Shown here: positions 575 to 9,400 of the stretch, piece by piece | Position numbering within the stretch: the stretch's first letter is position 1 | How the letters are laid out: every line of letters starts with the position of its first letter | From: Gemmatimonadota bacterium | GTDB taxonomy: Bacteria > JAAXHH01 | Reading direction: 5' to 3' | Assembly (NCBI GenBank): GCA_009838645.1 | Contig: VXRC01000005.1 | Coordinates: forward strand, 26,858 to 90,857 | DNA: 64,000 nt | Notes under the pieces: model-generated | The model's input: the letters and a program-made list of their open reading frames with translations, nothing else | What the model was told of the DNA's origin: nothing | Databases searched by the model: none | Program-made: the position numbers and the translations under genes

Positions 575-611
575 AGTCCGCCATGAAGCCCCGCGCTGAA
601 GTCCGTCCCGG

Positions 612-2036
612 CTATCCGTTCACCGATTTCGAAATCTCTTCGACCGCGCCGAGGAGTCTATCCACCTCGGCCGCCGTGACCATGATGTGCATCGAAGCGC
701 GGTTGGCGTCCCAGCCGACCTGCAGGTGGGTCACGCTGCGGATGTAGATGTTGTAATTTTCCATCAGCTTCATATTCAGATCCCGCGTCGGCACGCCCTT
801 GATCCTGAAGGGGACCAGTCCGGCGTGTAACCGTGGATCCTCGGAAGCGAACACCTCCACGCCGCCGATATTGCGGAGTCCGTTGGCCAGCTTGCCGGCC
901 AGGTAGCGGATGCGGGCCTCGATCCCTTCAGGGGTCAGGTGGTTGTGGAAATCGAGCGCCGCGTTCACGGCCGTCCACTTCGCATAGCAACTGGAACCCC
1001 GGCGTGTGTACTGGCCGGCAGAACTCATCCGCTCGAGCCAGCGCTCGTTCGAGGAGAGGTCTTCGCCGTACATGTTCTTCCCCGCGAAGGGCGTGGTCGA
1101 GGTGACGGGCTGGATCCGGTCGAACATGTCCTCTTTCACATAGAAGAAACCGGACTGCATGGAGGCCAGCATCCACTTGTGCGACGGACCGGCGTACATG
1201 TCGCATGCCAGGTCGTGCATGTCGAGCTTGACCATGCCCGGAGGCTGGGCGCCGTCGACCAGTGTGATGACGCCCTTTGATCTCGCCATCTCGCAGATCT
1301 CCTTGACCGGCATGAACAGTCCGTCCGTGTAGTTCGTGTGACAGAAGCTGAGCAGCTTGGTCCGTGGCGTGATCGCGGCCTCGAAGGCTTTCAGGAGATC
1401 GTCCGGCGACTTCGGCGGATGAAGTTTCGGGTCGGACAGGTCGATGACGCCTACGTTCAGCTTGTCCCGGTGCGCCCGGTTCAACACGGGGTTCGTGCCG
1501 GCGCCGTGGCAGTGGTTGGTATAGAGGATCTCGTCCCCGGGTTCGAGGACGGGACCGAACGTACCCGTAATCATCCCGTCGGTCGTATTGTTCGCCAGGG
1601 CGAGCTCGTTGGGTTTGCAGCCGACGTACGCGGCGAATTTGGCCATGAACGCGTCGGCATAGTCCATGGTATAATGATTCTGCCTGAAATCCACGTAATC
1701 GTTGTTGATGCGATTCAACGCGTCGATCTGCGCCATGTGGACGCTGCGCGGCGAAGGTCCCCGCGTCCCGGTATTCATGTAGGCGAGGTCCGGGCGGATC
1801 AGGAACTGTTTCGTGACCAGTTTCCAGAACTGTTCGTCATCGGGCGCGGCCGCCGCGCCCATATCGTTCATGTCCACTGCCGCGTGGGCGGTTTTCGCTC
1901 CCAGCGACAGCAGGGCGGCGCCAGCCAGCGTGCCGCCGAGAAAGCGGCCCAGGAAACCCCTGCGGTTGAGTGCCGCAAGTTCCCTGGGATCTTCGAATCT
2001 CGGATCGAAGTTCAGATCCGGCGAGAGGGGATTCAT
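612..2036 (-). CDS. Class V aminotransferase-fold PLP-dependent enzyme (isopenicillin-N epimerase / cysteine desulfurase-like) with a Tat signal peptide
   Basis: The N-terminus carries a twin-arginine motif RRGFLG followed by an h-region and AHA. A PLP-lysine motif AGPSHKW is present and the fold-type I layout is intact. A GGAGG RBS sits 6 nt upstream of the MNPLSPD ATG, so the start was trimmed from the 2078 ORF to about 2036. Confidence 0.7.
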   Translation of the reverse strand: MNPLSPDLNFDPRFEDPRELAALNRRGFLGRFLGGTLAGAALLSLGAKTAHAAVDMNDMGAAAAPDDEQFWKLVTKQFLIRPDLAYMNTGTRGPSPRSVHMAQIDALNRINNDYVDFRQNHYTMDYADAFMAKFAAYVGCKPNELALANNTTDGMITGTFGPVLEPGDEILYTNHCHGAGTNPVLNRAHRDKLNVGVIDLSDPKLHPPKSPDDLLKAFEAAITPRTKLLSFCHTNYTDGLFMPVKEICEMARSKGVITLVDGAQPPGMVKLDMHDLACDMYAGPSHKWMLASMQSGFFYVKEDMFDRIQPVTSTTPFAGKNMYGEDLSSNERWLERMSSAGQYTRRGSSCYAKWTAVNAALDFHNHLTPEGIEARIRYLAGKLANGLRNIGGVEVFASEDPRLHAGLVPFRIKGVPTRDLNMKLMENYNIYIRSVTHLQVGWDANRASMHIMVTAAEVDRLLGAVEEISKSVNG

Positions 2037-2207
2037 GGGAGTACCTCCGATTCGGGCCGACCGCAACCGGTGCCGCACCGGGTGGTTCCTGCACGGTTTT
2101 CATCCGGTTGAAGGCGATCTGGATATAATGGGGAAGAGATACTATTATCAATGCGTCAAAGAGCGATTTTAGGCAACCTGTTTTTGACTCGAAGGCTAAG
2201 AAATCAC

Positions 2208-2235
2208 TTGACAAGACACCCCCTTTCCGTATATT
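2208..2235 (+). promoter_or_regulatory. Sigma70-like promoter (TTGACA, 16-nt spacer, TATATT) for cspA, leaving a roughly 145-nt 5' UTR
   Basis: The hexamers were read directly in the divergent intergenic region. A long 5' UTR is typical of cold-shock cspA mRNAs. Confidence 0.4.
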
Positions 2236-2382
2236 TGCCCGAAGGTGCAAATCTCTTAATCCTCTCCCCAGACAACCCATGCGCGACCGTGACCAGACAT
2301 CCCACCGTCTTTGTCGGTGGCGCGTATTTATTGAGGTTTGTCAGGGAGACTTTTTCTTCCTGAGAAGGGTAGGAGTGTCAGT

Positions 2383-2589
2383 ATGGAACGCGGCACGGTA
2401 AAGTGGTTTAACGAACGCAAGGGGTTCGGATTCATCGCGCGTGACGATGGGGACGATGTGTTCGTACACTATTCAGCGATCGTCGCACAGGGATTCAAGA
2501 CGCTGAATGAAGGCGATGAAGTCACCTTTGACATTACTGAAGGTCCCAAGGGACTCCAGGCCGCTAACGTAACCAAGGTGTCCGGTTAG
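2383..2589 (+). CDS. cspA: Cold-shock protein, CspA family
   Basis: The 68-aa translation carries the RNP1/RNP2 motifs KGFGFI and VFVHY. An AGGAG RBS lies 6 nt upstream of the ATG. Confidence 0.9.
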
Positions 2590-2706
2590 AGACACCGTCA
2601 CAGCACTGTTCACAAGTGTGATAGCCCGTGGACTGATCCGCACAGTACACGGGCTATTGTGTATCAACGGACCCGCCCGAACGCCGGGCGCCCTGGAGAC
2701 GCCAGT

Positions 2707-3603
2707 ATGCCCGGCAGAGAATCGCCTGTTCCGGTAATCGACTTCGACACGCCCGCGCTCGAGTTTGACTTCCCCAGCCTGAAAATCGGATTCGCCGAAT
2801 ACGACGAAGGCCCGACCGGATGCACGGTCTTCCTTTTCGACGAAGGTTTCGTCACGGCCGTCGACGTGCGCGGCGGTATGCCCGGCGTGGTCGAATCCGA
2901 GTACCAGTTCCACCACGCCATCTGCTTCGCAGGGGGTTCGTTGCACGGGCTGGAAGCCGTTTCCGGCGTGCGGGCCGTCCTGACCGCTGCGGCGGCGCCG
3001 AGCAATCCCCCGCCCCTCCCGCTCGTCGCCGGCGCGATCATCTTCGACTGGTTCAACCGGAAGGGTTTCGTGTACCCGGACAAGGCGCTTGGCAAAGCGG
3101 CCGCGGAAGCGGCTGCCCCGGGCCGGTTCTACTTCGGCCGGCGTGGCGCGGGACGCTGGGCCGGCGTCGGCCAGGGAGGCGCTTTTCGCGAGATCGGAGC
3201 GACGAAGATCGCGGTGTTCAGCGTGGTAAACGCCCTGGGTGATATCGTGGACCGCGAAGGCCGGGTCCGCACGCGGGATCATCGCCATCCCTACGACAAG
3301 CTGGAAGCGCGCCTCGCCAGGGGCTCGAAATCCAGGTCCGACCAGGTGGGCAGGCATACCACGCTGACGCTGGTCGTGACCAACCAGAAATGGACCCAGG
3401 GTGAACTGAACCAGATCGGCAGGCAGGTCCACGCGTCCATGGCCCGGGCGATCCAGCCTTTTCACACGACACGGGACGGGGACGTGCTGTTTACGGCGAC
3501 GACAGGCGAGGTGGAGAACAGGCGCCTGAAGAGCACGACCGATTTCGGGTTGATCGCCTCGGAACTGGCCTGGGACGCCGTGCTGAACAGCCTGGGGGAG
3601 TGA
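2707..3603 (+). CDS. P1 (S58, DmpA/L-aminopeptidase D-Ala-esterase-like) family peptidase
   Basis: The translation contains GCTVFLF...VDVRGGMPG and AGGS...G regions characteristic of the DmpA/OAT Ntn-hydrolase family. The ATG at 2707 has a GGAG RBS, whereas the upstream GTG at 2659 lacks one. Confidence 0.55.
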   Translation: MPGRESPVPVIDFDTPALEFDFPSLKIGFAEYDEGPTGCTVFLFDEGFVTAVDVRGGMPGVVESEYQFHHAICFAGGSLHGLEAVSGVRAVLTAAAAPSNPPPLPLVAGAIIFDWFNRKGFVYPDKALGKAAAEAAAPGRFYFGRRGAGRWAGVGQGGAFREIGATKIAVFSVVNALGDIVDREGRVRTRDHRHPYDKLEARLARGSKSRSDQVGRHTTLTLVVTNQKWTQGELNQIGRQVHASMARAIQPFHTTRDGDVLFTATTGEVENRRLKSTTDFGLIASELAWDAVLNSLGE

Positions 3604-3643
3604 CGGCATGTATGCCCGGGTTGTCCCGTCGGAATGTTCCTCC

Positions 3644-6394
3644 CTACGGTTTAGGTAGATTCAGGTCGGGCACAACCCTCCGTGGAGCGATGCGTATCAG
3701 CGAAGCCAGACCTGCCGGCGAGTCTTCGTAGACCTCGAACTGATGGACATCCTCGTCGACGTCCCCGACGGGCGACGCAATCCCGGTCTCCGCGTCCACC
3801 GTATACAGTTTCGCCGTCCAGCCACCGGCCATGTACAATGCGCCTCCGTGTGAAGTCAGTCCGGTCGGCAGATCCTCTCCCACGCCGAACTCGGATGGGT
3901 CACCGACCGGCATCGCCGAGCCCGTCGAAGGATTCAATACGTACAGTCTTCCCGATCCGTAACCGACCATGTACAGGCTGCCTTCGTGAGAAGCCAGGCC
4001 GAAAGGGTGGGGTTCATCGACACCGAACCGGTCGGCATGGCCGACGGGCGTTGCTGCTCCCGTCACGGTATTCAGCGCGTAAAGTCGGGCGTTCGCCCCG
4101 CCGGCCATATACAGCGTTCCTTCGTGGGAAGCCAGTCCCGTCGGCTGGGTCTCGGCGACCCCGAATTCCACCGCGTCGCCGACCCGCATGGCCGCGCCGG
4201 TATCCGGGTCCAGCGTGTACAGCGCCGCGTTCCATCCGCCCGTCATGTACAACACGCCATTATGCGCGGCCAGACCGTGGGGTTCGTACTCGCCGGCGTC
4301 GAATAGCACGGTGTCTCCCACGGGTTGGGCTTCTCCCGTGTGAGGATTCAATCTGTACAGCCGGTCGGTCCCGTTGCCAACCAACAACAGTCCCTCCGAA
4401 AAGCCGGCTTCGTCGCAGCGCGGACCCGCTGGGTTGTCAAGAGCATCGAACCAGGTAAGCAGCTCCGGAGCGCTCGGTAGACACAGACCGTCATTGTCAT
4501 AGAAGAAAAACGCCAGAAGGTCTGTAAGGCCCGTAAAGGATCCTGGTATTTCCCCGGTGAACCGGTTTCCATGGAGAAACATGCCTTCGAGGTCGTCAAG
4601 CTGTCCCAACTCGGATGGGACAGGTCCGGACAGTTCATTATTGAACAGGTACAGCCCTTCGAGATCCTCGAGCCGTCCATACTCGGGCGGGATAGGTCCG
4701 GAAAGCTGGTTGTTGTGCAGCAACAGGTATTCGAGATTGTCCAGACTGCTCAGTTCTACCGGCAACGGTCCCGAGAGTTTGTTTCCATACAGGCTTAGCA
4801 GACGCAACTGGGCAAGATCACCCAGGACGGGGGGGATCTCACCGGAGAGACCGTTACTGTTGAGGAACAGCACCTCGAGATTCGTCAGATGTCCCAGTTC
4901 CTCGGGGATCGGTCCCGTAAACCTGTTTTCATCGAGGTCCAGACGTTCCAGGTTGATCAGTTGACTTAGTTCAATCGGAATGGGGCCGGACAATTCGTTT
5001 TTCCAGAGTATCACACTCTCCAGGTTGGCCAGATCGCCCAATTCCGGGGGGATCGTGCCGCTCAGCTTGTTTCTGTAAAGGTACAGTACTTCCAGGTTGT
5101 GCAGGCGTCCCAGTTCGGCAGGTACAGGTCCAAGCAGTTCGTTACTGTCCAGGGCAAGACGCTCGAGATTGGCGAGTTGACCCAGTTCTGCGGGGACGGT
5201 ACCGGTCAGGCGGTTTCTGCCGAGGTCCAGTCGCTTCAGGCTGGATGCCAGCCCCAGCTCCGGTGGTACGGATCCCGAAAGACCGTTGTTTTCGAGGTCC
5301 AGTACTTCCAGGTTGGGCAGCAGGGCGAGTTCGGCGGGAACCGTACCCGATATCTCGTTCCCGCCGAGATTGAGGATCCTCAGTTCCGCGAACTGAGTTA
5401 ATTCGACGGGGATGCCACCGGATATCTGATTGAACGCCAGGTCCAGTTCCCTCAGCAGGTCGAGATCGACGAGGCTTGCGGGCAATCTGCCCGACAGGCC
5501 GTTCGCTCTCAGCTCCAGGCGGATTACTCTCCCGTTCGCGTCGGTAGTTACGCCGTGCCACTCGCTCAGGGGCACTTCTTCATTCAGCCAGTTTTCATTG
5601 TCTTCCCAGTCTGGACCACTCAAGGCGTGGTAGAATCCGACCAGCGTGGTGCGGTCGTTGACAACGATGGCCACGGTTACGGGCACGCTAGTCGAGACCG
5701 CGCCGGAGGTGGCCGTAACGACCGTACGGCCGCTGCTCACCGAGGTAACCGTTCCAGCGTCGCTTACCGTCGCCACCGTTTCATCGGCACTCACCCATTT
5801 CACCAGCGCGTCTTCGACTATCTGACCGTTCTCGTCCAGGACCGTGGCCGTCAGTCCGGTGGTCTCGCCGGCCACAGTCAGCGACACGGACGCCGGTGCG
5901 ACGGTGATCGTCCCTGCCGACTGGGATACGGTAACCGAAGCAACCGCCTGTTTCTGTCCCACGGTGGCCGCGATGTCGGCCGTACCGTTACTGTGGGCGG
6001 TGACGAGCCCGCCGCCGCTCACGGAGGCTACCGACGGATTCCGGCTCGACCAGACCACCTCGTAGCCCGTCAACGCGTTGCCGGTCTCGTCCTGCACCTG
6101 CGCCGTAAGCTGAACGGACTGACTGATCGCCGTGATGGTAATGGCGCTCGGAGCCACTACGACTTTAGCCGGACCGGTCGGACGTGTGGGACTGTCCTCA
6201 CCGCATGAGACCGCGGCAAACAGGGCGAAAAGGAAGAAGATGGGGATCCGGGTTTTATGGGAGGACGTCTTCGGTGTTTGTAGTATACCGGCAGATGAAA
6301 CCGATTCACGATTGGACCGGCGTTGAAAACACATGTAACGCACCTCCTGGTGGGATGAACTGCGACAGGTGTCGCGTTTGCCCGTGATTCCCAT
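3644..6394 (-). CDS. Surface lipoprotein with three Big_2 Ig-like domains, about 12 plant-type leucine-rich repeats and five C-terminal ~46-aa repeats
   Basis: A lipobox LFAAVSC is followed by three Big_2-like units (VTxxSxxxxVATV...G.A.ITA). The LRRs are 24-residue repeats of the form LxxLxxLxLxxNxLSGxIPxELGxL. Five C-terminal repeats follow the pattern NPxTGxAxPVGDxxxFGVxExxPxGLASHxGxLYMxGG. The exact start is uncertain; the first in-frame ATG is near 6334. Confidence 0.7.
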   Translation of the reverse strand: MGITGKRDTCRSSSHQEVRYMCFQRRSNRESVSSAGILQTPKTSSHKTRIPIFFLFALFAAVSCGEDSPTRPTGPAKVVVAPSAITITAISQSVQLTAQVQDETGNALTGYEVVWSSRNPSVASVSGGGLVTAHSNGTADIAATVGQKQAVASVTVSQSAGTITVAPASVSLTVAGETTGLTATVLDENGQIVEDALVKWVSADETVATVSDAGTVTSVSSGRTVVTATSGAVSTSVPVTVAIVVNDRTTLVGFYHALSGPDWEDNENWLNEEVPLSEWHGVTTDANGRVIRLELRANGLSGRLPASLVDLDLLRELDLAFNQISGGIPVELTQFAELRILNLGGNEISGTVPAELALLPNLEVLDLENNGLSGSVPPELGLASSLKRLDLGRNRLTGTVPAELGQLANLERLALDSNELLGPVPAELGRLHNLEVLYLYRNKLSGTIPPELGDLANLESVILWKNELSGPIPIELSQLINLERLDLDENRFTGPIPEELGHLTNLEVLFLNSNGLSGEIPPVLGDLAQLRLLSLYGNKLSGPLPVELSSLDNLEYLLLHNNQLSGPIPPEYGRLEDLEGLYLFNNELSGPVPSELGQLDDLEGMFLHGNRFTGEIPGSFTGLTDLLAFFFYDNDGLCLPSAPELLTWFDALDNPAGPRCDEAGFSEGLLLVGNGTDRLYRLNPHTGEAQPVGDTVLFDAGEYEPHGLAAHNGVLYMTGGWNAALYTLDPDTGAAMRVGDAVEFGVAETQPTGLASHEGTLYMAGGANARLYALNTVTGAATPVGHADRFGVDEPHPFGLASHEGSLYMVGYGSGRLYVLNPSTGSAMPVGDPSEFGVGEDLPTGLTSHGGALYMAGGWTAKLYTVDAETGIASPVGDVDEDVHQFEVYEDSPAGLASLIRIAPRRVVPDLNLPKP

Positions 6395-6433
6395 GTCTCT
6401 TCGTCGGAGAAGTCTCCCGCGTCCAGCGGGACG

Positions 6434-9400
6434 TCAGAAGCTTATGCGTCCGATGAGACCTATGCGGTGATGGACAGGTCCGCCCCTTTGATCGACACGC
6501 GAGCCTGAAAGCTCCAAGGAACCGGAACGCCGACTTCGGACCGGGGTGCCGACGCGGGTTCCGATCCGCACCTGCCGCCGTTCATCGCCGTAGAGATTCA
6601 TCTCGCCGAAAGAGGTGAACAGCACGCCGGCGGAAGAAGCCAGGCCATACCCCACCTCGGTCCGCAGGGAATGGGCGTCGTTTCTTCCGCGTAAATCGGA
6701 TCCGGCAAGCGGCCGGTCGCGCCACATCATGCCGGAGTCGCCGGCTCCGGCGCCCACGCGCGGGGCCACGGACATCATAAGGCCCCGCCCGTCCGCGTCG
6801 GGATTCATGAAGGCGACCAGGGAGAACCCGTGTTCGCTGTAACCCTGGCCGGTATGGACGGCCAGGAACCTGCCTCGTGCGTGCACGCCGATCCGGTTTC
6901 CGGCCAGCCGCAGGCCGCCCGATACCTCGAGGCCCTGTCCGGTTCGTCCGTCGCCGCCGTCATGGCGTCCGGCCACCTGGACATAGGGGGTTGCCGTGGC
7001 GCCGCCGCCCAGAGATGCCGATCGCGAACCTTCCAATCCGATGCGCATACGCTGGACGCTGGCGACAATATCGCGCAACGCGGCTGATCCACTATCGGAG
7101 GTGGAAACGCGCAGCAGTCCCGCGTCGCCCACCACGTCGATCCCCATGCTTCCGGAGGAGGCCAGCCGCGACCGCAGCCCCGCCATGCCCATTCGCATGT
7201 CCAGATCACTGGCGTCCGTTCCGTCGTCGACGTTACCGGAACCGAGACCCAGGATCGTCCACACTTCGGTGCAGCATCCCTCCCCAGACCAGCGCGCGTA
7301 GGGCAGTACGCTGGCGAGGCTGGCCTCAAGGCTTCCGCTGGCCACGGCGACGTCGTAGTCGGACCGTCCCATGGTGTAGGAGAGGGCGATACCGGCCATC
7401 CAGCGCTGCCGCGCGGCCAGGTCTACGCCGAGATAGGCCGTCGTCGTGTTGCCGTCAAATGAGGCGCCGTCCGCGGGTTCGTTCTTGAAACGCTGCCAGT
7501 CGCCGGCCCCCCATACGCCCCATCGAAGACGGTCGCCGGCGGCCTGGTCGTCGAAGGCGTAGGAGAAGGCGCTGGACCGGAGCAGGTAATCTCCGCGGCC
7601 ACCGTCCCGATGCCGTCCGCCGTCCATCAGCGCCATTTCTCTTGACGAATCCCGGTTTCGGTGCCCAGTCACGTCAGCCAGCGCCGACACGGCGGCCGCG
7701 GGACCGTCGATCCTGCGTCCACCCACGACCACACCCTGGCCGCCGCCGGTGAAACGCCCTCCGACTGTGGTCGAAACGCTCGATAGCATGCCGCGGCCCA
7801 TGGCGGCGAGGATATCGGTATACGTCTCGCGTTCCGCCAGGACGGCCGTGACGGTTACGCCGAAGACGAGGCTGGCCTCACCGGCCGCGTTCCTGGCGGA
7901 GAGGGTCACCGTGGCCGATCCTTTGCGCACACCCGTTACGCTCAGCGTGGCGCCGGAGAGGACCGCTTCGGCCACGCCGTTGTCCGACGAACTCACCGAA
8001 TAGGTCGGCGAGGTGCCGCTGAAGAGCGCGCCCGCATCGATCGTCTCGGAATCCCCCGCTTCCAACGTGACCGGCGGCACGACGCCGGAAACCGCCGGAG
8101 CCTCGAAGGCATCGCTTATCTTGAGCGTCGCGGCGCCGAGATCCCGGCCATTGAAAAGCGCTGTGAAGATGATCGTTTCGTCCCCCAATTCGTACACATA
8201 GTCACGGACGGGCGTGATGGTAAGCCCCGTCGATCCCTCCGTCTCCCCGCCGGGAATCGAGATACTCAGATTTCCGCTCACACTGTAGTCGTCGCCGGCA
8301 GCTGTGCCGGAAAGCGAGAGGGGGATCACAACCGCGACCGGTATGGCCAGACCCGTCCGCGTCGCCGTCACGGTCACGGGCTGCGCGCCGGCGGCCTCCG
8401 ACACGGCGGCCGGACTCACCGTAAGCGTGATGTCGGGCACGTGTTCTGTAACGTCGAAATAGATCCCCGATCCGATGATGTATTCCGTTCCGCCGTAAGT
8501 CGCGGTCTCCGCGTAACTCACCTTCGGCGAGCCGGATGCTTCATCTCCAACTACGTCCGGGTTGTCGAAGTAATACTCGACGAAACCGCCTCCGGCCTGT
8601 GCGGCCATGATGATTTCACGGGTGTAAAAGACCCCGTTGAGGTCCTGGTGATCATAGAGGTTCACGTTTTCCAGCGATGAATTGGCGCCGTGAAACAACA
8701 ACACGCCGTCGTCCCGATAGATAAACAGGTAAACCGCCCCGTGCTTCCAGGGACCGTCTTCTTCTCGGAGCGCTCTTCCTATCTGCGCCGGTGGCGCTTC
8801 CGGACCGGAGCCCGTCAGCGCAAAGGCCTCCTCCGACCAACTGGCCGCGCCCTTCACGAAAGATCTCAGCGTTTCCCGGTCCATAACGTCCCGCGCCCAT
8901 ACCGCGGGTGGTTCCGGCAGTTCCGATTCCTCGCCGCTCGTTATGTACTGATTGAAACCGGCCGCCACCACCCAGGTCTGGCCGGTCTGCGCAAGGGCAT
9001 AGGGGATCGCATAGGCAACCCGGTCCGGAGGAGATGTCGAGGCGATCCGGAGCGGATCGACACCTTCCACATCGGGATCGTCCCACGTGTAATCGACGAA
9101 ACCACCGCCGGCCGCTGCCGTCTCCAGGATCTTTCGGACGACCAACACTCCGTTGTCGTCTTCCAGGTTGCTCGCGTCGATACCGTCCCGGGTAGGGTCG
9201 TCCGCGTGCAGGAACACCGTGCCGTCGGGATGGAACAAGACGAAATACATCATGCCGGGCACTCTCCAGATCCCCTCCGATCGGATATCCGCCTGGAGTC
9301 GGACGGCTTCGTCCGCGGTGTCTATGGTATCCAGGTAATCCCTGAAACCCGTCACGAAGGATCGAAGCGTCTCGCGGTCCACCACGTCGGCCGCCGTTAC

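What the first reader, a model, noticed from the sequence alone, without database searches (positions are those of the whole stretch)
3644..6394. Lipoprotein combining Big_2 Ig domains, plant-specific-type LRRs and a five-blade-like repeat, co-oriented directly downstream of the Cache autotransporter
The 24-residue repeats follow the plant-specific LRR consensus LxxLxxLxLxxNxLSGxIPxxLGxL for about 12 units, which is uncommon in bacteria. The repeats are preceded by a lipobox and three Big_2 domains. They are followed by five regular ~46-aa repeats (NPxTGxAxPVGDxxxFGVxExxPxGLASHxGxLYMxGG) that look like propeller blades. The gene starts 40 bp after the autotransporter stop on the same strand. 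This suggests a two-gene cell-surface recognition or adhesion module, with the LRR protein as a binding partner.
Basis: partly seen in the sequence, partly recalled or inferred. Interest (0 to 1): 0.6.

Follow-up and report, generated by a model that had tools for sequence, protein, structure and literature searches.

The report
Sponge-symbiont LRR–propeller surface lipoprotein
This is a real gene for a lipid-anchored, probably adhesive envelope protein of a sponge-associated Gemmatimonadota bacterium, assembled from known parts (two Ig-like domains, 14 plant-type leucine-rich repeats, a five-bladed beta-propeller); it is an ordinary member of the "eukaryote-like repeat" proteins common in sponge symbionts and not a fixed partner of the neighbouring autotransporter.

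Summary
The ORF at 3644-6394 (minus strand) is real and under purifying selection. Its true start is the ATG at 6334, giving 896 aa.

Architecture:
- a signal peptide with a conserved lipobox (LFAAVS|C)
- two Big_2 domains, not three
- a capped array of 14 exact 24-residue plant-specific-type LRRs, not about 12
- a Cys-pair C-cap
- five 46-residue repeats that AlphaFold models (pLDDT 90) as a 20-strand, five-blade beta-propeller of NHL/YWTD-like type

Plant-type LRRs are not rare here. Lipobox–Big_2–LRR proteins number in the thousands in Gemmatimonadota metagenomes. The propeller module has about 1,500 representative clusters and is shuffled onto ankyrin, reprolysin and RHS/Tc-toxin proteins.

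The complete fusion occurs in only about six contigs, at least two of them from a sponge metagenome.

The two-gene module idea is not supported. Only the closest relative keeps autotransporter→LRR. Five other autotransporter orthologues carry PhyH (then, where annotated, a PD40 protein) instead. Two LRR–propeller orthologues sit beside a Na+/H+ exchanger.

Best reading: an anchored host- or matrix-binding adhesin. It is a new member of a known kind, of low to moderate interest.

The parts
3644..6334 (-). Gene for the 896-aa lipoprotein (true start ATG at 6334; stop at 3644-3646)
   Evidence: ORF. Gene caller start and exact match on ENA contig ERZ23491842 scaffold_50. The L008 orthologue is 81% identical over 896 aa with no gaps. 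dN/dS is 0.26.
6343..6348 (-). Shine-Dalgarno AGGAGG, 8 nt before the ATG at 6334
   Evidence: Sequence. Conserved in L008, whereas the upstream ATG at 6394 lies in a 41-nt segment absent from L008.
6203..6334 (-). Signal peptide: long basic n-region, h-region IPIFFLFALFAAV, lipobox A-V-S-C (Cys44 of the 896-aa protein)
   Evidence: Read from the translation. The lipobox is conserved in L008 (LFAAVSCG) and L055 (LFAVVSCG). Lipidation is inferred from the pattern and was not tested.
5666..6166 (-). Two tandem Big_2 Ig-like domains (stalk)
   Evidence: Pfam Big_2 2.9e-19, 69.2 bits against a cut-off of 22.8, 2 stretches.
5528..5665 (-). LRR N-terminal cap (…LVGFYHALSGPDWEDNENWLNEEVPLSEWHGVTTDANGRV…), LRRNT_2-like pattern without the Cys pair
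   Evidence: HMMER aligns it to the N-cap of plant GSO1, but only weakly (6.5 bits). Pfam LRRNT_2 was not reported at E<0.01.
4520..5527 (-). 14 consecutive 24-residue plant-specific-type LRR units
   Evidence: Regular 24-aa register at residues 290-625 of the long ORF. Consensus LExLxLxxNxLSGxIPxELGxLxN. LRR_1 6.8e-41. Plant LRR-RKs are the best PDB matches. 72-nt DNA period.
4397..4519 (-). Partial 15th LRR and C-terminal cap with two conserved Cys (…DNDGLCLP…GPRCDE…)
   Evidence: Translation. Both Cys are conserved in L008 and in P0121/P0123. The disulfide is inferred.
3695..4396 (-). Five-bladed beta-propeller domain (five 46-aa repeats; an N-terminal three-strand segment and the last strand share one blade)
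   Evidence: AF2 with a 43-sequence alignment gives pLDDT 90.1 and pTM 0.87, with 20 strands in a 3+4x4+1 pattern. Foldseek gives probability 1.0 to YWTD/NHL/PknD/Pizza6 propellers. Pfam gives DUF4394, DUF6923 and Kelch_6. It has the lowest dN/dS of any region (0.175).
3647..3694 (-). 16-residue C-terminal tail (RIAPRRVVPDLNLPKP)
   Evidence: Low model confidence. Conserved in L008 but not in L055. No T9SS or other sorting-domain hit.
6415..6431 (-). Small hairpin 3 nt after the autotransporter stop codon (UCCCGC-uggac-GCGGGA)
   Evidence: Alignment with L008 shows one compensatory pair change, CCCGC/GCGGG against CCUGC/GCAGG. It has no U-tract and the terminator scan did not call it. Its role is unknown.
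6434..10777 (-). Upstream neighbour: Cache-domain autotransporter (context, not shown to be a functional partner)
   Evidence: Pfam dCache_2 2.9e-48, sCache_2 2.2e-43, Autotransporter 6.7e-07. It is 100% identical to NCBI MXY48099.1, 'autotransporter domain-containing protein [Gemmatimonadetes bacterium]'.

Best explanation
The gene encodes a Sec/SPII-exported, lipid-anchored envelope protein of an uncultured sponge-associated Gemmatimonadota bacterium. Two Big_2 Ig-like domains form a stalk. The stalk holds out a capped solenoid of 14 plant-type LRRs, whose concave face is conserved and rich in aromatic residues. A compact five-bladed beta-propeller sits at the distal end. The protein most likely acts as an anchored, two-site binding protein (an adhesin or receptor) for a host-, matrix- or neighbour-derived macromolecule. 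It belongs to the 'eukaryote-like repeat' surface proteins that are enriched in sponge symbionts. It is a lineage-specific domain fusion that took over a slot in a conserved gene neighbourhood. Its position behind the Cache autotransporter is incidental or, at most, a recent association.

Shown: gene reality, start codon, domain composition, fold class, purifying selection, distribution and synteny pattern.

Inferred: lipidation, surface exposure, the binding function and the ligand.
For: - Domains and fold.
- Export and anchoring: the lipobox is conserved in three orthologues. Many Big_2-LRR homologues begin the same way, for example P0001 '...LLAACGKDSP'.
- Functional constraint: dN/dS is 0.26 overall and 0.175 in the propeller.
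- Binding face: LRR concave-face x positions vary less than convex ones across three orthologues (31/70 against 57/84, Fisher p=0.005). Units 7-14 carry Y/W/F/H on the concave face.
- Habitat: the autotransporter on the same contig is annotated as a Gemmatimonadetes MAG protein. Relatives come from MAGs named APA_/IRC1_/COS/RHO bins. Those bin prefixes look like abbreviations of sponge species sampled in PMC8163846. Orthologues L053 and L054 are from WGS LXNJ, the Petrosia ficiformis sponge metagenome.
- Modularity: the propeller module is fused elsewhere to ankyrin repeats, to reprolysin plus LRR, and to SpvB/TcdB/RHS proteins. That fits a portable binding domain.
- Not tied to the autotransporter.
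Against: - No ligand, localisation or expression data exist.
- The lipobox Cys is at residue 44, further from the N-terminus than is typical, and no lipoprotein predictor was available.
- Surface exposure versus a periplasmic orientation cannot be decided from sequence in this phylum.
- The sponge origin of the window's own sample rests on the sample code (ENGE20-1) and on relatives, not on metadata I could read.
- Closure of the five-blade ring was inferred from the strand count and pTM, not from inspecting coordinates.
- The concave-versus-convex contrast rests on only three orthologues.
Confidence: 0.6

Rival explanations
1. One reading: the Cache autotransporter and the LRR-propeller lipoprotein form a co-transcribed two-gene surface module. 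The LRR protein binds, or cooperates with, the autotransporter passenger.
For: The genes share a strand, with a gap of 99 nt in the window and 58 nt in L008. No canonical terminator or promoter was detected between them. The adjacency is retained in L008 at dS of about 0.4.
Against: Five further autotransporter-orthologue loci with usable downstream flank (L004, L005, L006, L007, L009) have no LRR gene; L003-L007 carry PhyH instead. LRR-propeller orthologues in L002 and L055 are next to a Na+/H+ exchanger gene with no autotransporter. The whole neighbourhood is conserved between the window and L008, so the adjacency there carries little weight on its own. A conserved hairpin with a compensatory change sits between the two genes.
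Confidence: 0.12
2. A periplasm-facing envelope scaffold. It would be an outer-membrane inner-leaflet lipoprotein with a housekeeping role in envelope assembly or peptidoglycan and outer-membrane maintenance, by analogy with propeller lipoproteins such as BamB.
For: It has a lipobox with Gly at +2, so no Asp inner-membrane retention signal by E. coli rules. It has a propeller domain with a weak PQQ_2/BamB Pfam hit at 5.2e-05, below the cut-off. It replaces a signal-peptide PD40 protein in the same slot.
Against: Its distribution is very patchy, about six contigs, whereas housekeeping genes are widespread. It has two different genomic contexts and a tandem duplication in L002. Its domains (Big_2, plant-type LRR) are typical of surface adhesins. 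The propeller module is shuffled onto toxins and ankyrin proteins.
Confidence: 0.15
3. A released mimic or decoy. The protein would be shed or delivered to sponge cells, where its plant/animal-like LRR surface interferes with host pattern recognition or phagocytosis, as proposed for ankyrin-repeat proteins of sponge symbionts.
For: Eukaryote-like repeat proteins are enriched in sponge MAGs, and ankyrin examples block phagocytosis (PMC8163846). The LRR region is highly similar to eukaryotic receptor ectodomains. The closest named NCBIfam models are Xanthomonas type III effectors XopAC, XopAE and XopL, all far below their cut-offs.
Against: A conserved lipobox argues for anchoring rather than release. 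No T3SS/T4SS signal or T9SS C-terminal domain was found. The Big_2 stalk is typical of anchored adhesins.
Confidence: 0.13

Closest known systems
Lipobox-Big_2-LRR proteins of Gemmatimonadota and related MAGs (e.g. P0001, P0010, P0106 'Ig-like domain-containing protein [Gemmatimonadota bacterium]')
   Same: Same N-terminal plan: a signal peptide with lipobox in many, Big_2 domains, then 24-residue plant-type LRRs. They are 35-52% identical over the Big_2 plus LRR part.
   Different: They are 1,000-1,560 aa with longer LRR arrays and other C-terminal domains. The alignments cover only 38-67% of the query, so none of the best 120 includes the propeller.
Plant LRR receptor-kinase ectodomains (GSO1 6s6q, BRL2, FLS2 4mn8, MIK2, PEPR1)
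   Same: Same 24-residue plant-specific LRR class and a similar N-cap motif (W-x-GV-T-x-D…G-R-V). E-values run down to 1.8e-147.
   Different: No transmembrane helix, kinase or island domain. The N-cap has no Cys pair. The protein is lipid-anchored and bacterial, with Big_2 and propeller partners. Part of the high score comes from repeat multiplicity.
Bacterial plant-type LRR proteins: Xanthomonas effectors XopAC/AvrAC, XopAE and XopL; Leptospira LIC11098/LIC10831/LIC12759 and the LIC_11051 fibronectin-binding protein
   Same: The LRR region matches at 4e-32 to 2e-13 in NCBIfam and at 1.9e-57 to 6e-48 against the solved Leptospira structures.
   Different: All scores are far below the family cut-offs (111 against 450 bits, 100 against 600, 88 against 1000). 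Those proteins carry other effector domains or none, and none has the Big_2 or propeller parts.
DUF6923 / DUF4394 / NHL / YWTD six-bladed beta-propellers (PknD sensor 1rwi, TRIM2 NHL, LRP4/LRP6 YWTD)
   Same: Four-stranded blades with a similar blade motif. Foldseek probability is 1.0 and TM 0.5-0.62. The family profile hits NHLRC2 at 8e-07. The isolated domain scores 31.1 bits for DUF6923 against a cut-off of 27.
   Different: This one has five blades, not six. DUF4394 is matched only as repeated hits to a single blade of its profile. Sequence identity to solved structures is 11-20%.
Eukaryote-like repeat proteins of sponge symbionts (ankyrin, LRR, TPR, HEAT)
   Same: Same ecological setting and protein class. 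LRR proteins are reported as enriched in sponge-associated MAGs (PMC8163846).
   Different: That category is defined by Pfam counts and not by mechanism. Only ankyrin examples have experimental support (phagocytosis evasion). This particular fusion has not been described.
LGI1/epitempin-type LRR + beta-propeller secreted proteins of animals (from my own knowledge, not tested here)
   Same: A capped LRR domain followed directly by a beta-propeller in an extracellular bridging protein.
   Different: LGI1 has a seven-bladed EPTP propeller and only a few LRRs. No sequence relationship was tested, so this is an analogy of architecture only.

Membership tests
Plant-specific (PS) class of LRRs | Repeat length of 23-25 residues | tested here: met
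   14 consecutive units of exactly 24 residues, with a 72-nt DNA period. Class definition from PMC2946307.
Plant-specific (PS) class of LRRs | Consensus LxxLxLxxNxL(t/s)GxIPxxLGxLxx | tested here: met
   Derived consensus LExLxLxxNxLSGxIPxELGxLxN. The best 40 PDB matches are plant LRR-RKs.
Plant-specific (PS) class of LRRs | LRRNT_2-type N-terminal cap | tested here: inconclusive
   The motif resembles the plant cap and aligns to the GSO1 cap at only 6.5 bits. Pfam LRRNT_2 was not reported at E<0.01 and the Cys pair is absent.
Bacterial lipoprotein (SPII substrate) | Hydrophobic h-region followed by a lipobox [LVIA][ASTVI][GAS]-C | tested here: met
   IPIFFLFALFAAV-S-C. Conserved in L008 and L055.
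Bacterial lipoprotein (SPII substrate) | Lipobox Cys within about the first 35 residues; actual lipid modification | tested here: inconclusive
   The Cys is at residue 44 of the 896-aa protein because the basic n-region is 29 residues long. No in-frame ATG/GTG/TTG lies closer. No predictor was available and lipidation cannot be tested here.
Big_2 (PF02368) | Score above the Pfam gathering threshold | tested here: met
   69.2 bits against 22.8, with 2 stretches. There are two domains, not the three claimed.
Beta-propeller fold | Repeated four-stranded antiparallel blades in a closed ring | tested here: met
   AF2 pLDDT 90.1 and pTM 0.87, with 20 strands corresponding to 5 blades. 612 PDB matches at E<=0.001; the 50 listed are all propeller proteins. 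Ring closure was inferred and the coordinates were not inspected.
DUF6923 (PF21959) / DUF4394 (PF14339) | Domain-level match above the gathering threshold | tested here: inconclusive
   DUF6923: 31.1 bits against 27 for the isolated domain, one stretch, but not listed for the full-length protein. DUF4394: 35-48 bits against 29.6, with no single stretch significant and only profile positions 36-67 matched.
Conserved two-gene autotransporter + LRR module | Adjacency conserved across relatives that have either gene | tested here: not met
   Only 1 of 7 autotransporter-orthologue loci (L008) has it. L002 and L055 have the LRR gene beside a Na+/H+ exchanger.
Conserved two-gene autotransporter + LRR module | Co-transcription | not testable with these tools
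   Same strand, 99-nt gap, no consensus promoter or terminator, but a conserved hairpin follows the autotransporter stop. RNA data are needed.
T9SS cargo | C-terminal sorting domain (Por_Secre_tail or similar) | tested here: not met
   No such hit in Pfam or NCBIfam at E<0.01. The tail is not conserved in L055. A SprA_N-like protein is nevertheless encoded in the window.
Xanthomonas XopAC / XopAE / XopL effector families | NCBIfam score above the curated cut-off | tested here: not met
   111.5 against 450, 100 against 600 and 50 against 500 bits. Only the LRR region matches.
Anti-phage defence proteins (PADLOC) | Any model hit | tested here: not met
   0 families for the LRR protein and for the autotransporter.

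The most novel reading that the evidence does not exclude
The LRR-propeller lipoprotein is a dedicated host-recognition factor of sponge-associated Gemmatimonadota. Its five-bladed propeller would represent a large, uncharacterised family of multivalent, lectin-like binding modules. That family has about 1,500 clusters at 50% identity, up to 17 matched stretches in one protein, at least 12 paralogues on one 1.9-Mb contig, and fusions to ankyrin, reprolysin and Tc-toxin/RHS scaffolds. On this reading, symbionts use the module to dock onto sponge cells or matrix and so avoid being eaten.
Probability: 0.15. Interest if true: 0.55.

Novelty: new member of a known kind. Interest (0 to 1): 0.25.

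Why it matters
How sponge symbionts are recognised and spared by a filter-feeding, phagocytic host is an open question. Eukaryote-like repeat proteins are the main candidates, and very few have been dissected. This gene is a clean, conserved example with a defined anchor, stalk and two candidate binding surfaces, so it could be expressed and tested. Its C-terminal module also points to a large uncharacterised propeller family. The architecture itself is domain shuffling among known parts, and the proposed link to the autotransporter does not hold, so the finding is useful but not surprising.

Tried and rejected
- Long ORF start at 6394: rejected in favour of 6334.
- Tat signal: the 'QRRS' motif lies 24 residues before the h-region and lacks the hydrophobic follow-on, so it was rejected by inspection.
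- T9SS, PEP-CTERM or other sorting tails: no hits.
- Anti-phage defence role: no PADLOC hits. PHROG hits reflect only generic Ig and LRR similarity.
- Mobile-element insertion: no flanking inverted or direct repeats beyond the coding repeats, and no GC anomaly.
- Other copies in the window: none.
- Intergenic RNA structure: the overall fold is not better than shuffles (z = -0.9). Only the small hairpin is conserved.
- Single-sequence AF2 gave only pLDDT 66 and was replaced by the alignment-based model.
- Engelberts et al. 2020 (PMC7174397) is not held, so the sample's sponge origin could not be read directly.
- An exact-sequence cluster look-up did not find the LRR protein, although look-up of encoding contigs did.
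Full report
**Observation**

The minus-strand ORF at 3644..6394 exists (916 aa). The base composition of the region matches the rest of the window (about 60-62% GC).

The real start is the ATG at 6334 (M21), for four reasons:
- AGGAGG sits 8 nt upstream.
- The metagenome gene caller used this start, and the 896-aa product is found exactly on ENA contig ERZ23491842 ENGE20-1_SAMN12347676 scaffold_50, 149 kb.
- The orthologue in L008 begins at the same Met (MRFQRRSH… against MCFQRRSN…).
- The upstream ATG at 6394 lies in a 41-nt segment that L008 lacks, while the SD and ATG are conserved.

The gap to the autotransporter stop codon (6434) is therefore 99 nt, not 40.

**Anatomy** (residues in the long-ORF numbering; subtract 20 for the 896-aa protein)

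- *Signal peptide.* A basic n-region is followed by the h-region IPIFFLFALFAAV and the lipobox A-V-S-C64. The lipobox is conserved in L008 and L055.
- *Big_2.* Pfam reports Big_2 at 2.9e-19 with two stretches, so there are two Ig-like domains in residues about 77-243, not three.
- *LRR array.* An N-cap resembling the plant LRRNT_2 motif, but without Cys, leads into 14 units of exactly 24 residues at 290-625. Their consensus is LExLxLxxNxLSGxIPxELGxLxN. This matches the plant-specific class as defined in PMC2946307.
- *Similarity to plant receptors.* By sequence, the 40 best PDB matches are all plant LRR receptor kinases (GSO1 1.8e-147, BRL2, FLS2, MIK2, PEPR1…). The first bacterial structures, Leptospira LIC11098 and others, appear at 1.9e-57.
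- *C-cap.* A partial 15th unit and a cap with two conserved Cys (C638, C660) follow.
- *C-terminal repeats.* The C-terminus has an exact 46-residue period starting at 679, 725, 771, 817 and 863. Units 1-4 are 48-65% identical to each other.
- *DNA level.* The same periods appear as 72-nt and 138-nt direct-repeat families.

**Fold of the C-terminal domain**

A single-sequence AF2 run was mediocre (pLDDT 66). With a 43-sequence alignment (A1) the model reached pLDDT 90.1 and pTM 0.87. It has 20 beta-strands arranged 3 + 4×4 + 1. That corresponds to five four-stranded blades, with the last strand (PAGLASLI) joining the first three, which is the usual 'velcro' closure.

Foldseek against the PDB gave 612 matches at E<=0.001, and the 50 listed are all propeller proteins. 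They include the YWTD propellers of LRP4 and LRP6, nidogen, the NHL domains of TRIM2 and TRIM71, the PknD sensor and the designed Pizza6 proteins. Probability was 1.0 and TM 0.5-0.62, the moderate TM reflecting five blades against six.

A family profile hits NHLRC2 (8e-07) and Kelch proteins in the PDB. Pfam gives DUF4394, DUF6923 and Kelch_6 at or just above threshold.

**The gene is functional**

L008 (CBDBLQ010000002, a 3.5-Mb MAG contig) encodes an orthologue of identical length that is 81% identical with no gaps. Nei-Gojobori dN/dS is 0.26 overall, 0.28 for the LRRs, 0.30 for Big_2 and 0.175 for the propeller, at dS of about 0.41.

A third full-length orthologue (L055, Ga0209021_1003421) allows a positional analysis. 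LRR x-positions on the concave beta-face vary in 31 of 70 unit-positions, against 57 of 84 for x-positions of the convex segment (Fisher p=0.005). Units 7-14 present Y, W, F and H on the concave face. The propeller is the most conserved domain (75-86% identity).

**How common are the parts?**

- *Big_2 plus LRR.* The full-length search returned 6,337 proteins at E<=0.001 among a capped 8,000 candidates. The best 120 are 1,000-1,560-aa Big_2 and/or LRR proteins. Three of the four that carry a source name are labelled Gemmatimonadetes/Gemmatimonadota. They cover only 38-67% of the query, that is, the part without the propeller. They carry a median of 17.5 plant-type motifs, 68% of them spaced at exactly 24 residues, and 36 of the 120 have a lipobox-like N-terminus. 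Plant-type LRRs are therefore common in this lineage.
- *Propeller.* The propeller alone found 45 proteins by the word-indexed search. An exhaustive HMMER scan found 1,546 representative clusters, 198 of them at <=1e-30, including giants with up to 17 matched stretches. The module occurs alone with a lipobox and a Cys-rich segment, with at least 12 paralogues on one 1.88-Mb contig. It is also fused to ankyrin repeats (P0220), RHS repeats (P0183), reprolysin plus LRR (P0221) and SpvB/TcdB/RHS Tc-toxin-like proteins (P0169).
- *The fusion.* Of the 186 best propeller proteins only four contain LRRs. The complete Big_2-LRR-propeller fusion was found in the window, L008, L002 (two tandem, frameshifted copies in a low-coverage long-read contig), L055, L053 and L054.

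**Synteny**

A genome scan with the autotransporter gave 48 loci. tblastn of the three parts of the LRR protein against all of them shows the autotransporter → Big_2-LRR-propeller → PepS58(-) arrangement only in L008.

The wider neighbourhood is conserved and shows what happened:
- L003-L007: AdoHcyase – PLP decarboxylase – autotransporter – PhyH. In L004 and L007 an 845-914-aa ORF follows, then [PepS58] – CSD – aminotransferase V. The 845-aa L004 protein was Pfam-scanned and is PD40/DPPIV_N-type.
- Window and L008: AdoHcyase – PLP decarboxylase – PhyH – autotransporter – LRR-propeller – PepS58 – CSD – aminotransferase V.

The PD40 gene is absent from the whole window. The LRR gene thus occupies a slot that was remodelled in one sub-lineage.

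In L002 and L055 the orthologue instead follows a Na+/H+ exchanger-TrkA_N gene, with no autotransporter in the flanks. The two-gene module is therefore not a conserved unit.

Between the two genes there is a small hairpin with one compensatory change between the window and L008. It has no U-tract, and no consensus promoter or terminator was called. Co-transcription remains untested.

**Source and ecology**

The autotransporter on the same contig is 100% identical to NCBI MXY48099.1, MYG84106.1 and MYJ89437.1, 'autotransporter domain-containing protein [Gemmatimonadetes bacterium]'. Related loci come from MAGs named APA_bin, IRC1_bin, COS and RHO bins. These prefixes look like abbreviations of the sponge species (Aplysina, Ircinia, Coscinoderma, Rhopaloeides) studied in PMC8163846. 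L053 and L054 are from WGS LXNJ, the Petrosia ficiformis sponge metagenome (PMC5099237).

[quoted passage not shown] The sponge origin of the window's own sample is inferred from its code and from these relatives.

**Mechanism**

The most economical reading is a lipid-anchored envelope protein. Its Ig-like stalk presents two binding modules: an LRR solenoid with a conserved, aromatic-rich concave face, and a strongly conserved five-bladed propeller. It would bind a host, matrix or neighbouring-cell ligand. I put this at about 0.6.

The rivals are:
- the autotransporter-partner model (about 0.12)
- a periplasm-facing housekeeping scaffold (about 0.15)
- a released host-mimic or decoy (about 0.13)

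No defence-system, phage, T9SS-cargo or effector-family membership is supported.

**Verdict**

The adhesion-type interpretation is plausible, but the pairing with the autotransporter is not supported. Every part belongs to a known kind and the Big_2-LRR plan is abundant. Only the propeller fusion is rare. This is a new member of a known kind, with interest of about 0.25.

Noticed in passing
window 55139-61447 (-): A 2,102-aa ORF matches Pfam SprA_N (1.1e-15, 57.9 bits against a cut-off of 27). SprA_N is the N-terminal region of the T9SS translocon SprA/Sov. This suggests that this Gemmatimonadota genome has a type IX-like secretion component.
   Followed up: partly
window 6415-6431 (-): A hairpin lies 3 nt after the autotransporter stop. 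Relative to L008 it shows one compensatory base-pair change (CCCGC/GCGGG against CCUGC/GCAGG), followed by a conserved AGACUUCUCC and no U-tract. It could be a terminator or a processing/stability element between the two genes.
   Followed up: partly
L003-L007 versus window 600-14700: The conserved neighbourhood is AdoHcyase, PLP decarboxylase, autotransporter, PhyH, PepS58, CSD, aminotransferase V. In the window/L008 lineage PhyH has moved upstream of the autotransporter. An 845-aa PD40/DPPIV_N protein (L004; a 914-aa counterpart in L007) is replaced by the LRR-propeller gene.
   Followed up: yes
L004 10001-16444; P0310-P0330: The Cache autotransporter family varies in length from about 1,180 to 2,147 aa. 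The variation comes from gain or loss of whole Cache-Cache plus Calx-like-looking modules. The window's protein has two such modules and L004 has three or more.
   Followed up: no
L002 5899-11038: There are two tandem copies of the Big_2-LRR-propeller gene downstream of a Na+/H+ exchanger. They are broken into several ORFs, probably by frameshift errors in an 8x long-read assembly and not by genuine pseudogenisation.
   Followed up: partly
L051 and proteins P0124, P0128, P0130, P0131, P0135, P0138, P0139, P0142-P0144, P0146, P0154: At least 12 paralogous stand-alone propeller lipoproteins sit on one 1.88-Mb contig (ERZ22155170 ctg25965l). The members whose sequences were read have a lipobox, one to three copies of a Cys-rich 'YxCxNGTx…RCxSCNxxYxL' module, and five blades ending in …LRYQ. 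An RCC1-repeat protein is encoded nearby.
   Followed up: no
L052 (P0221), L058 (P0169), L056 (P0220), L057 (P0166): The same propeller module is fused to reprolysin (M12B) plus LRR, to SpvB/TcdB/FG-GAP/RHS Tc-toxin-like proteins, to ankyrin repeats, and into a 3,141-aa protein with 17 matched stretches of the module.
   Followed up: partly
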